Shown here: positions 57,599 through 58,524 of the stretch, piece after piece
Position numbering within the stretch: the first letter of the stretch is position 1
How the letters are laid out: each line of letters begins with the position of its first letter
Virus record (IMG/VR): IMGVR_UViG_3300020055_000012
Coordinates: 1-64,000 of that record
Origin: a virus
Length of the DNA stretch: 64,000 nucleotides
Reading direction: 5' to 3' (one strand)
Notes under the pieces: model-generated
The model's database searches: none
The model's input: only the letters and a program-made list of their open reading frames with translations
Told to the model about the DNA's origin: nothing
Translations under genes and position numbers: made by a program

Positions 57599-57943
57599 AT
57601 GAATTCTGCTTTTAGGATAAATGCAAGACATAAAAGGAATGTACTAATAGAAAGAAGAGATAACATAAATCTTCAAATTTCTTCTGTTAGAGTAAAAGCT
57701 AAAACAAGAAAGTTAAAAACTAACTGGACTCCTGAACTTGCTCAAGATTTAGAACGCTTTAATGTAACACATAAAGAGCCTGAAAATGTATATAAAAAGA
57801 TATTATTAACTGAAAAGTATGTACCAAAAAAATTTAATACACTTGATGTTGAAGCTCAATTGGTAGATGAACTATCATTAAATTTGGCTCAAGAAATTGA
57901 TAGACAAATCTTAAACAATTTAATGAACTTAGGAAATGAATAA
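57599..57943 (+). CDS. Mini-protein homologous to the C-terminal part of a T4-like major capsid protein (gp23)
   Basis: VKAKTRKLKTNWTPELAQDL...LDVEAQLVDELSLNLAQEIDRQIL matches the conserved gp23 segment. Confidence 0.75.
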   Translation: MNSAFRINARHKRNVLIERRDNINLQISSVRVKAKTRKLKTNWTPELAQDLERFNVTHKEPENVYKKILLTEKYVPKKFNTLDVEAQLVDELSLNLAQEIDRQILNNLMNLGNE

Positions 57944-58295
57944 TTCATCAGTAAATAAAGCATTAAATGATTGGTATAATTTAACTTATCCAAAAGATAA
58001 AACAATATACAAAAGAGAACTTCTTATTGAGAAGAATCATTCTTATAAATATTTAGGCGGCGCAATTGCGCTTCCTTTAGCAAGGCAAGTTGCAGCTACT
58101 ACCATAGGATTTGATTTAGTTTCTGTTTCTCCAATGGAAAGACCATCTGGTCAGCTTTTTTATGTTGATTATAATCTTGAAAATAAAAATTTATATAAAA
58201 AAGTATTGCTAATTGAAAAGTATATAAGAAAATCAAAGAAAAGAACAAGAAGAAGTAGAAGAAGAGGTCAAAATGGAAAAAAGATATATGGATAG
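57936..58295 (+). CDS. Mini-protein homologous to an N-proximal segment of major capsid protein gp23
   Basis: IALPLARQVAATTIGFDLVSVSPMERPSGQLFYVDY. Confidence 0.75.
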   Translation: MNNSSVNKALNDWYNLTYPKDKTIYKRELLIEKNHSYKYLGGAIALPLARQVAATTIGFDLVSVSPMERPSGQLFYVDYNLENKNLYKKVLLIEKYIRKSKKRTRRSRRRGQNGKKIYG

Positions 58296-58524
58296 ATATT
58301 TTAGAACTTTATTGGTTGAACTATATAAGCCGCAAACAATTTGGAGTCCTGGGGTTTATATTAGAGAAAGTGATATTAGTGTTATAAGTTATGATTTAAT
58401 TTCAAGCCCTTCAAATTCTGGCTCAACAATAGGTATAAGCTCTAGAGCGATAGGAGGAGTATTTAATGAGCCTATAAAGATAGAAAGTGCAGAACAGTTT
58501 AGAAATTTTTTTGATGATGTGTAA
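58273..58524 (+). CDS. Mini-protein homologous to the tail sheath (gp18) N-terminus
   Basis: SPGVYIRESDIS...GISSRAIGGVFNEPIKIESAEQFRNFF. Confidence 0.7.
   Translation: MEKRYMDRYFRTLLVELYKPQTIWSPGVYIRESDISVISYDLISSPSNSGSTIGISSRAIGGVFNEPIKIESAEQFRNFFDDV

What the first reader, a model, noticed from the sequence alone, without database searches (positions are those of the whole stretch)
57599..58524. Operon of mini-proteins made from major capsid and tail sheath fragments (possible decoys)
Three overlapping short ORFs each carry one conserved piece of a T4-like virion protein: a gp23 C-terminal segment, a gp23 N-proximal segment and the gp18 N-terminus. The capsid pieces are in reverse order relative to the parent protein, the frames are intact and translationally coupled, and the block is far from the structural module. 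This argues against simple decay of one gene. Established knowledge: some defence systems (for example CapRel and Lit) are triggered by capsid protein. Inference: these could be decoys that titrate structural-protein sensors, or dominant-negative assembly inhibitors of competing phages.
Basis: partly seen in the sequence, partly recalled or inferred. Interest (0 to 1): 0.82.

Follow-up and report, generated by a model that had tools for sequence, protein, structure and literature searches.

The report
Tagged mini-proteins copying virion protein pieces
A large uncultured salt-marsh phage and its relatives keep an operon of tiny proteins built from the most conserved pieces of the capsid, tail-sheath and head-protease proteins; the pieces are separated by an invariant peptide tag that looks like the head protease's own cutting site, an arrangement I found described nowhere and whose role is still open.

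Summary
ORFs 57599-57943, 57936-58295 and 58273-58524 overlap by 8 and 23 nt. The first carries a central (not C-terminal) gp23 segment. The second carries the gp23 N-terminal helix plus the 'Gol' region. The third carries a tail-sheath N-terminus.

Three points are new:
- ORF C also contains segments of a gp21-type prohead protease.
- Every module is bounded by a 10-12 residue tag, N-[VIL]-Y-K-R-x-L-L-I-E|K-Y. Its core is the T4-type L/I-x-E protease cleavage motif and equals the gp21 self-cleavage site. The tag also ends two unrelated small proteins nearby.
- The operon is conserved with the same flanks in at least four other metagenomic phage contigs. More distant relatives fuse, delete or add modules at the tags.

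The frames stay open despite dS up to 0.9. dN/dS is 0.36-0.7, against 0.06-0.35 for most flanking genes, and reaches 1 or more for ORF C among close relatives. AlphaFold confidence is low.

Best reading (about 40%): these are unstructured substrates or pseudo-substrates of the phage's own prohead protease, tied to head maturation. The parent genes are not on the 79-kb record and expression is not shown. The scan had noted this stretch only on this same genome.

The parts
57525..57598 (.). Divergent intergenic region. It carries TATAAATA on the + strand (57541-57548) and on the - strand (57563-57570). Candidate divergent, T4-late-type promoters.
   Evidence: The region is about 80% column-identical across five genomes, and the motif is kept in four of five. 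TATAAATA is twofold enriched in the window (34 matches against 17 expected), but it is not systematically placed upstream of genes, so the timing inference is weak.
57599..57943 (+). ORF A, 114 aa. Order: degenerate N-terminal tag, gp23 strand/helix piece, full tag, gp23 helix piece.
   Evidence: It is one contiguous gp23/gp24 segment split by a 25-26 aa insert that holds the tag.
57629..57652 (+). Tag copy 1, degenerate (..KRNVLIE).
   Evidence: Relatives have a clean N-terminal copy here.
57656..57760 (+). gp23-like segment, Pfam Gp23 positions 131-165.
57782..57820 (+). Tag copy 2.
57839..57928 (+). gp23-like helix segment, Pfam about 167-198; aligns to T4 gp24 190-221.
57936..58295 (+). 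ORF B, 119 aa. Order: capsid-protein N-terminal helix, tag, 'Gol' region, tag, arginine-rich tail.
58008..58031 (+). Tag copy 3. Ten residues here are invariant in 12 homologues.
58059..58169 (+). Segment homologous to T4 gp23 residues 92-127, the most conserved ('Gol') region.
   Evidence: PMC3014915.
58194..58217 (+). Tag copy 4.
58224..58292 (+). Basic Arg/Lys-rich C-terminal tail.
   Evidence: It is kept in close relatives and absent in the 89-98 aa variants.
58273..58524 (+). ORF C, 83 aa. Order: weak tag, sheath N-terminal arm, protease-derived middle, rest of the sheath N-terminus.
58297..58320 (+). Tag copy 5, degenerate in this genome and clean in relatives.
58330..58380 (+). Tail-sheath N-terminal arm (SPGVY...E.D.S).
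58366..58455 (+). Segment matching the gp21-type prohead protease: the Asp-motif strand, then the Ser-motif, in reverse order relative to the enzyme.
58456..58521 (+). Second part of the sheath N-terminus (..NEP..I.S..EF...FG).
56274..56558 (+). Cro/C1-type HTH protein carrying the same tag near its C-terminus (56502-56525).
62425..62595 (+). 56-aa ORF ending in the same tag (62554-62577).
58579..58923 (+). Predicted small membrane protein, the next gene downstream on the same strand, before the hairpin.
   Evidence: syntenic in relatives; weak DUF2207_C hit.
58949..58975 (.). GC-rich hairpin flanked by A and T runs, between convergent genes. Likely a bidirectional terminator closing the unit.

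Best explanation
The block is a conserved operon of small, probably unstructured, modular proteins.

Shown:
- Each module is a copy of one of the most conserved short segments of a T4-type morphogenesis protein. These are the capsid protein's N-terminal helix, its 'Gol' region, its strand-plus-helix region, the tail-sheath N-terminal arm, and the Asp- and Ser-motif strands of the prohead protease.
- Modules are bounded by an invariant tag, N-[VIL]-Y-K-R-x-L-L-I-E|K-Y.

Inferred:
- The tag is a recognition and cleavage site for the phage's own gp21-type prohead protease, which cuts after Glu in L/I-x-E.
- The proteins are therefore made late and are bound, and probably cut into peptides of about 25-65 residues, by that protease.
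- They would act as prohead-core or internal peptides, or as pseudo-substrates that buffer protease activity.

Why the cargo copies virion-protein segments is not explained by this step alone.
For: Tag composition and conservation:
- In 40 distinct copies the tag has Glu at P1 in 40/40, Leu or Ile at P3 in 40/40 and Leu at P4 in 37/40. This fits the L/I-x-E rule for T4 gp21 (PMC9026906; PMC12991175).
- The tag is the most conserved part of ORF B: ten invariant residues in 12 homologues.
- It is kept with mixed synonymous codons, for example four Leu codons, so selection acts on the peptide.

Match to known T4 sites:
- T4 gp21 begins with a 9-residue peptide ending in LLIE, identical to the tag at P4-P1. 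That peptide blocks the active site and is self-cleaved (PMC9958956).
- Protease N-termini in huge-phage relatives (..SLLIIE..NVLIIE) resemble the N-terminal tags of ORF A and ORF X.
- T4 gp23 is cut after FLTE65 and gp24 after LLRE10. This follows from the sequences and from the offsets between mature and full-length chains.

Position of the tag in ORF B:
- The first tag sits 13 residues before the Gol region. Related capsid proteins have an L-x-E site 12-27 residues before it.
- ORF B's start matches the capsid protein's N-terminal helix.

Tag as a module boundary:
- Modules are swapped, fused or deleted exactly at tags in relatives.
- The same tag ends two unrelated small proteins nearby, and this is conserved in relatives.

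Consistent but weak:
- AlphaFold gives pLDDT 42-50, with the ORF B tags modelled as extended strands. This suits flexible substrates.
- T4 ipII and ipIII start with a comparable 10-residue targeting peptide ending in I-A-E (PMC9026906).
Against: - No protease gene is on this 79-kb record or on the related 72-kb record. The enzyme's existence and specificity in this phage are therefore assumed from the gp23/gp21-like fragments.
- L/I-x-E is a short motif, and the tag is far more constrained than cleavage alone needs.
- P1' is Lys in 26 of 40 tags. The three T4 sites read here (gp23, gp24, gp21) have Ala, Ser or Thr at P1'.
- Some tags are C-terminal, unlike the T4 targeting peptides.
- The operon sits among lysis, tRNA and nuclease genes, not head genes.
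- There was no significant similarity to T4 gp67, gp68, gp22 or Inh.
- Nothing here shows cleavage, packaging or even transcription.
Confidence: 0.4

Rival explanations
1. Immune decoys or maskers. The mimic peptides would occupy host sensors that recognise conserved virion proteins. Examples are Lit-type proteases triggered by the gp23 Gol region with EF-Tu, STAND receptors such as Avs7 that bind capsid protein with EF-Tu, and CapRel-type toxins. Alternatively, the multi-copy tags would soak up prohead-protease activity so that host 'tripwire' loops (CBASS CD-NTases) are not cut.
For: - The retained segments are the most conserved parts of their parents, including catalytic-site strands that have no use in a non-enzyme.
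- ORF B keeps the region homologous to Gol, which binds EF-Tu and is the most conserved gp23 region (PMC3014915).
- Avs7 senses capsid protein together with EF-Tu (PMC12803255).
- CBASS senses gp21 through I/LxE loops (PMC12991175).
- dN/dS is raised relative to neighbouring genes, and modules turn over. Both are typical of arms-race genes.
Against: - No sensor, binding or anti-defence phenotype was tested.
- A free Gol peptide activates Lit rather than blocking it (PMC3014915).
- No hit to a known anti-defence family was sought or found.
- Short disordered peptides would not mimic the folded surfaces that STAND receptors read.
Confidence: 0.2
2. The tag is a docking or zipper motif for some other partner, or for self-association, and not a protease site. 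It would bring a set of small proteins, including an HTH regulator, to a common hub. Its resemblance to L/I-x-E would be incidental.
For: - Ten to twelve residues are conserved, more than a cleavage site needs.
- Tags occur at N-terminal, internal and C-terminal positions and on unrelated proteins.
- AlphaFold draws the two tags of ORF B as strands, at low confidence.
Against: - No partner is identified.
- The P4-P1 identity with the gp21 self-cleavage peptide.
- The positional match to the capsid-protein maturation site.
- Protease-derived segments lie in the same proteins.
Together these would be a striking coincidence.
Confidence: 0.15
3. Assembly modulators. The fragments would insert into capsid, sheath or protease assembly interfaces. 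They would either poison the assembly of co-infecting T4-like phages, or cap the phage's own subunits until the protease removes them.
For: - The sheath piece is the N-terminal arm. From my own knowledge, not tested here, this arm links neighbouring sheath subunits.
- The capsid pieces flank the insertion domain and would adjoin in the fold (inference).
Against: - Nothing here shows binding to the parent proteins; it was not measured.
- The fragments copy conserved segments, so they would be expected to poison the phage's own assembly as well.
Confidence: 0.12
4. Junk in slow decay. These would be chimeric leftovers of a duplicated late-gene cluster, joined by illegitimate recombination at the short LLIE-coding repeats and carried along without function.
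For: - dN/dS is 0.36-0.7, and 1 or more for ORF C and ORF X in some close pairs.
- Fold confidence is low.
- ORF X is missing in this genome.
- No RNA cover of most of the operon was seen. The tool warns that this is not evidence of absence.
Against: - The frames are open in every genome seen, at dS up to 0.9, although 8% of random codons are stops.
- There are invariant blocks, and the start-stop overlaps are conserved.
- Distant members are 75-189 aa long and keep the same grammar.
- A strongly conserved upstream region is present.
Confidence: 0.1

Closest known systems
T4 internal proteins and their capsid targeting sequence (IPI-III, Alt)
   Same: Both have a short conserved peptide of about 10 residues with an aromatic residue, two hydrophobic residues and a final Glu. 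In T4 it ends in the L/I-x-E site and is removed by gp21 (PMC9026906). Both are attached to otherwise unrelated small proteins.
   Different: Here the tag is also internal and C-terminal, and occurs up to three times per protein. The cargo is copied from virion proteins. Neither packaging nor cleavage is shown.
T4 prohead core proteins gp67 and gp68
   Same: Both are tiny, translationally coupled late proteins with several L/I-x-E sites and highly charged tails. In T4 they are degraded to peptides by gp21 (PMC9958956).
   Different: There is no significant sequence similarity. The operon is not located between portal and protease genes. gp67 and gp68 showed no similarity to these mini-proteins, whose cargo is copied from capsid, sheath and protease.
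gp21 N-terminal auto-inhibitory peptide
   Same: The core LLIE followed by cleavage after Glu is identical at P4-P1. In T4 this peptide occupies the catalytic centre until it is cut (PMC9958956).
   Different: Here it is carried in trans on separate small proteins and in many copies.
gp23 Gol peptide / Lit exclusion system
   Same: ORF B keeps the homologous region (T4 gp23 residues 92-127), which is the most conserved part of gp23 and binds EF-Tu (PMC3014915).
   Different: Gol is part of the full capsid protein and is a trigger, not a counter-measure. No Lit homologue or EF-Tu binding was examined.
Multi-core peptide precursors with repeated recognition sequences (for example cyanobactin precursors; recalled from my own knowledge)
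   Same: Both show a grammar of conserved recognition motif, variable core, motif.
   Different: The cores here are 25-65 residues long and copied from virion proteins. No modification enzymes were seen nearby.

Membership tests
Gp23 major capsid protein (PF07068) | Sequence match above the Pfam gathering score. | tested here: met
   ORF A scores 49 bits and ORF B 28.1 bits, against a cut-off of 24.4.
Gp23 major capsid protein (PF07068) | A complete HK97-type fold of about 450-550 residues covering the whole profile. | tested here: not met
   Only profile positions 7-49 and 131-198 of 376 are present, on two ORFs and in reverse order. These are fragments, not capsid proteins.
Contractile tail sheath (gp18-like) | N-terminal arm sequence. 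| tested here: met
   The genome-wide best hit of the ORF C profile is residues 8-64 and 5-59 of the annotated sheath proteins.
Contractile tail sheath (gp18-like) | Sheath body domains (PF04984). | tested here: not met
   No PF04984 match anywhere on the 79-kb record. ORF C is 83 aa.
Prohead protease S77 (gp21, PF03420) | His, Ser and Asp motifs in order within a fold of about 200 residues. | tested here: not met
   Only the Asp-motif and Ser-motif strands are present, in reversed order and without a His segment. PF03420 gives no hit.
Substrates of T4-type prohead protease | L/I-x-E motif with cleavage after Glu. | tested here: met
   For the motif only: 40 of 40 tag copies have L/I at P3 and E at P1. 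The rule is from PMC9026906 and PMC12991175.
Substrates of T4-type prohead protease | Actual cleavage by the cognate protease. | not testable with these tools
   Needs biochemistry or virion mass spectrometry. The protease gene is not on the record.
T4 CTS-bearing internal (ejected) proteins | N-terminal targeting peptide and presence in the virion. | tested here: inconclusive
   Tags are N-terminal in ORF A, ORF X and some distant members, but internal or C-terminal elsewhere. Virion content is unknown.
T4 gp67/gp68/Inh head-core proteins | Sequence homology. | tested here: not met
   BLASTP E > 1 for all pairs.
Gol-type EF-Tu-binding peptide | Homology to the gp23 Gol region. | tested here: met
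   ORF B aligns to T4 gp23 residues 92-127. The published residue range of Gol is recalled from memory; the review read here says only that it is a 29-residue region in the first quarter of gp23.
Gol-type EF-Tu-binding peptide | Binding to EF-Tu or activation of Lit. | not testable with these tools
   Experimental.

The most novel reading that the evidence does not exclude
Phages encode 'mimic-peptide arrays'. These would be disordered polypeptides that string together copies of the conserved epitopes of their own capsid, sheath and head-protease proteins, between copies of the protease's auto-inhibitory cleavage peptide. They would blind host pattern-recognition immunity (Gol/EF-Tu-type sensors, capsid-sensing receptors, protease tripwires such as CBASS) or restrain free protease in the cytoplasm. 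This would be a new class of counter-defence based on self-mimicry.
Probability: 0.2. Interest if true: 0.9.

Novelty: new variant of a known kind. Interest (0 to 1): 0.66.

Why it matters
If the tag is a protease and capsid-targeting signal, it is a portable, sequence-defined handle that marks which small proteins a large uncultured phage sends through head maturation. It could be searched for in other genomes and tested in the T4 system, whose protease shares the LLIE core.

If the cargo mimicry is functional, it would show that phages copy their own most conserved, immune-visible segments into expendable peptides. That bears directly on how capsid-, sheath- and protease-sensing defences are evaded.

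Either way it is a clear natural case of new small genes built by recombining in-frame pieces of essential genes at a short shared motif.

Tried and rejected
The contigs of the 89-98 aa ORF B variants (P0008-P0011) and of the fused proteins (P0016, P0018, P0020) could not be fetched.
- Complex prediction of ORF A with ORF B gave no answer (score 0.03). It is not used as evidence either way.
- AlphaFold of ORF B and ORF C gave pLDDT 49.5 and 42.1. This is too low for any fold search.
- ORF C had no hit by Pfam, PHROGs, the PDB profile search or tblastn against phages.
- PF03420 and PF04984 do not hit the record.
- 'Longer' protein searches for a cognate full-length capsid protein found one 40%-identical hit for ORF A and none for the ORF B family.
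- The nearest full-length capsid proteins are 35-58% identical over the fragments, so recent gene conversion from the parent could not be tested.
- ORF X, present in relatives only, has no detectable homologue. A gp24-like resemblance has E 1.3 and is only a lead.
- The complete huge-phage genome LR756500 has a similar capsid protein and protease but no such operon. Its only profile hit was spurious.
- Four salt-marsh RNA runs gave contigs on neighbouring genes. Only one 151-nt contig (58461-58611) touches the end of ORF C. This shows neither expression nor silence.
- The similarity of the tag to the internal protease motif (..RIY.K.IL..) scored -1.3 to 1.9 bits, so I do not rely on it.
- The late-promoter reading of TATAAATA is weak.
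- blastn against phage records found nothing.

Full report
**What is there**

The window is the first 64 kb of a 79.4-kb IMG/VR virus record. It has 30% G+C and is estimated about 24% complete, so the phage is probably very large.

At 57599-58524 lie three + strand ORFs:
- ORF A, 114 aa;
- ORF B, 119 aa;
- ORF C, 83 aa.

Each is shifted +1 in frame from the one before, and they overlap by 8 and 23 nt. They follow a short divergent intergenic region. After them come a small membrane-protein gene and a GC-rich hairpin between convergent genes.

**The capsid pieces are real**

- Pfam Gp23 matches ORF A at 49 bits and ORF B at 28 bits, both above the 24.4-bit cut-off.
- Against solved structures, ORF B aligns to T4 gp23 residues 92-127. 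ORF A aligns to two adjoining stretches of T4 gp24.
- BLASTP against a 553-aa gp23-like protein from another viral contig aligns ORF A end to end with residues 292-379. The only interruption is a 25-residue insert in ORF A.
- ORF A is therefore a central gp23 segment, not a C-terminal one. ORF B holds the region that a T4 review calls Gol and describes as the most conserved part of gp23.
- ORF B's first residues also match the N-terminal helix of related capsid proteins. A distant fused relative aligns collinearly to the head-protein profile from its own start.

**The sheath piece, and a protease piece**

- ORF C gave nothing in the family libraries, the PDB, phage tblastn, or a scan of 1.84 billion representatives. 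That scan returned only nine small proteins.
- I then searched a profile of its family against whole genomes of T4-like phages, where the search space is small.
- The best hits were the first ~60 residues of the annotated tail sheath in Microcystis phage Mel-JY01 and in a Flavobacterium phage.
- The next hits, in three genomes, fell on the prohead protease.
- A profile of only the middle 30 residues of ORF C found the protease, and nothing else, in two genomes (E 1e-4 and 1e-3).
- ORF C is therefore a sheath N-terminus whose centre is replaced by the Asp-motif strand and then the Ser-motif of a gp21-type protease. These two are in the opposite order to the enzyme.

**The tag**

- A peptide recurs around every module.
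- From 40 distinct copies in this family, the consensus is N-[VIL]-Y-K-R-x-L-L-I-E followed by K-Y.
- In ORF B's family the tag is invariant, while the capsid segment varies.
- It is encoded with mixed synonymous codons, so the peptide is what is conserved.
I confirmed them near the C-terminus of a Cro/C1-type HTH protein (56274-56558) and at the C-terminal end of a 56-aa ORF (62425-62595).
- Both extra copies are conserved in relatives. There are no other credible copies in the 79 kb or in the collinear 72-kb relative.

**Relatives**

- ORF B has 11 homologues of 89-123 aa at 45-96% identity.
- Four further contigs carry the operon between the same flanking genes: one 72-kb IMG/VR record, one 94-kb contig and two shorter ones. 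A fifth contig, of 1.6 kb, carries the operon without flanks.
- These contigs have four ORFs: A, an extra ORF X of unknown origin that starts with a tag, B and C. They keep start-stop overlaps between A, X and B, and an 8-nt gap before C.
- On the 1.6-kb contig, ORF B's N-terminal part is joined at the tag directly to the C-type module, and the capsid piece is lost.
- More distant members fuse the B and C modules in one chain of 138-189 aa.
- The grammar 'tag, module, tag, module' is thus conserved, while the modules are shuffled at the tags.
- The protein atlas lists several clusters of about 117-127 aa viral proteins with partial Gp23 matches. Their scores are only at lead level.

**Selection**

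- Stop codons make up 8.2% of random codons at this composition, so the open frames are not chance.
- By Nei-Gojobori counts the mini-ORFs have dN/dS of 0.36-0.7. ORF C reaches 1.1 and 1.8 in two of the three close pairs, and ORF X 2.2 in one pair. These values rest on few changes.
- In the same genome pairs, most well-aligned flanking genes give 0.06-0.35. A few poorly conserved ones (30-40% identity) reach 0.5-0.85.
- In most pairs the mini-ORFs also show lower dS than their neighbours. I cannot explain this.
- The picture is a few strongly constrained positions (the tags and the parent-like residues) within fast-changing linkers.

**What the tag resembles**

- T4 gp21 cuts after Glu in L/I-x-E (PMC9026906; PMC12991175).
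- Read from the T4 genome, gp21 starts with nine residues ending in LLIE. A review states that this N-terminal region blocks the catalytic centre and is self-cleaved.
- gp23 is cut after FLTE65 and gp24 after LLRE10. The sites were read, and the offsets between mature and full-length chains agree.
- ipII and ipIII begin with the known ten-residue capsid-targeting peptide ending in I-A-E.
- Protease-scaffold fusion proteins of two huge phages start with ..SLLIIE and ..NVLIIE. These are close to the N-terminal tags of ORF A and ORF X.
- In related capsid proteins an L-x-E site lies 12-27 residues before the Gol region. In ORF B the first tag's Glu lies 13 residues before it.
- The simplest origin is that the tag descends from these native protease sites, and that recombination between such sites built the mosaics.

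**How it most likely works**

Shown:
- the composition of the modules;
- the tag;
- conservation of the operon and of its grammar.

Inferred:
- The tags bind the catalytic cleft of the phage's gp21-type protease.
- Each protein is then either cut into peptides of about 25-65 residues, or acts as a pseudo-substrate.
- The low AlphaFold confidence, with the ORF B tags drawn as extended strands, suits flexible substrates, but it could also reflect shallow alignments.
- The upstream region is highly conserved and holds TATAAATA on both strands. This would fit T4-type late transcription, but the motif is not clearly linked to genes elsewhere in the window.

Open:
- whether the products stay in the head;
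- whether they buffer protease activity;
- whether they mimic the parent proteins towards host sensors.

Recent work makes the last two ideas concrete. CBASS enzymes sense gp21 through I/LxE loops, and Avs7 senses capsid protein together with EF-Tu. None of this was tested here.

**Limits**

- The parent genes are not on the record, so fragment-to-parent identity, gene conversion and the true protease specificity are unknown.
- Expression is not shown. RNA contigs from salt-marsh metatranscriptomes cover neighbouring genes and only the last 64 nt of ORF C.

**Verdict**

This is a real, conserved and unusual gene family. I rate it a new variant of protease-processed small head proteins, with a 20% chance that it is a new self-mimicry counter-defence.

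Noticed in passing
L020 (LR756508.1, 156519-159659): The prohead protease homologue of this 484-kb uncultured phage is interrupted right after its ..ELDHP motif by roughly 330 residues. The insert starts with Cys and ends ..GN before Ser, which looks like an intein with a homing-endonuclease domain.
   Followed up: no
L039 1788-3686 and L042 7211-9658: In two huge phages the prohead protease is fused to a long scaffold-like C-terminal part. 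The L042 protein has about a dozen tandem copies of a unit of about 14 residues (..EYIAENVDK..).
   Followed up: no
window 57599-58524 versus flanks: In most genome pairs the mini-ORFs have lower synonymous divergence than their flanking genes (for example dS 0.02-0.25 against mostly 0.18-1.0 for L005-L006), while dN is higher. Possible causes are a more recent exchange of the cassette or a constraint on the RNA; unexplained.
   Followed up: partly
L005 7735-8004 (ORF X; absent from the window): This extra tag-headed 89-92 aa ORF lies between ORF A and ORF B in relatives and is 84-90% conserved among them, with no detectable homologue. Its resemblance to T4 gp24 residues 35-68 is weak (E 1.3).
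   Followed up: partly
window 58277-58283: A run GGAAAAAAG lies in the ORF B / ORF C overlap, and distant relatives have B and C fused. A +1 shift here would join the two ORFs; no evidence for it was sought.
   Followed up: no
window 58995-59717 (- strand): A gene for a very acidic 240-aa protein, with Met/Asp/Glu/Thr-rich repeats, is covered by contigs of two salt-marsh metatranscriptome runs. It has no family match.
   Followed up: partly
window 16477-22509 (- strand): Three tandem paralogous genes of about 660 aa match the C-terminal part of PHROG 4775 (pre-neck appendage / tail-spike like).
   Followed up: no
G000:C1 72964-75466 (beyond the window; L014 10965-13467): Three consecutive C-5 cytosine DNA methyltransferase genes. 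The first two match only parts of the profile.
   Followed up: no
window 55794-56264: A YqeY/GatB-like protein gene sits just after the tRNA clusters and just before the tagged HTH gene.
   Followed up: no
window 51481-51984 and 61892-62419: Two HNH endonuclease genes. The second lies directly upstream of the tagged 56-aa ORF.
   Followed up: no
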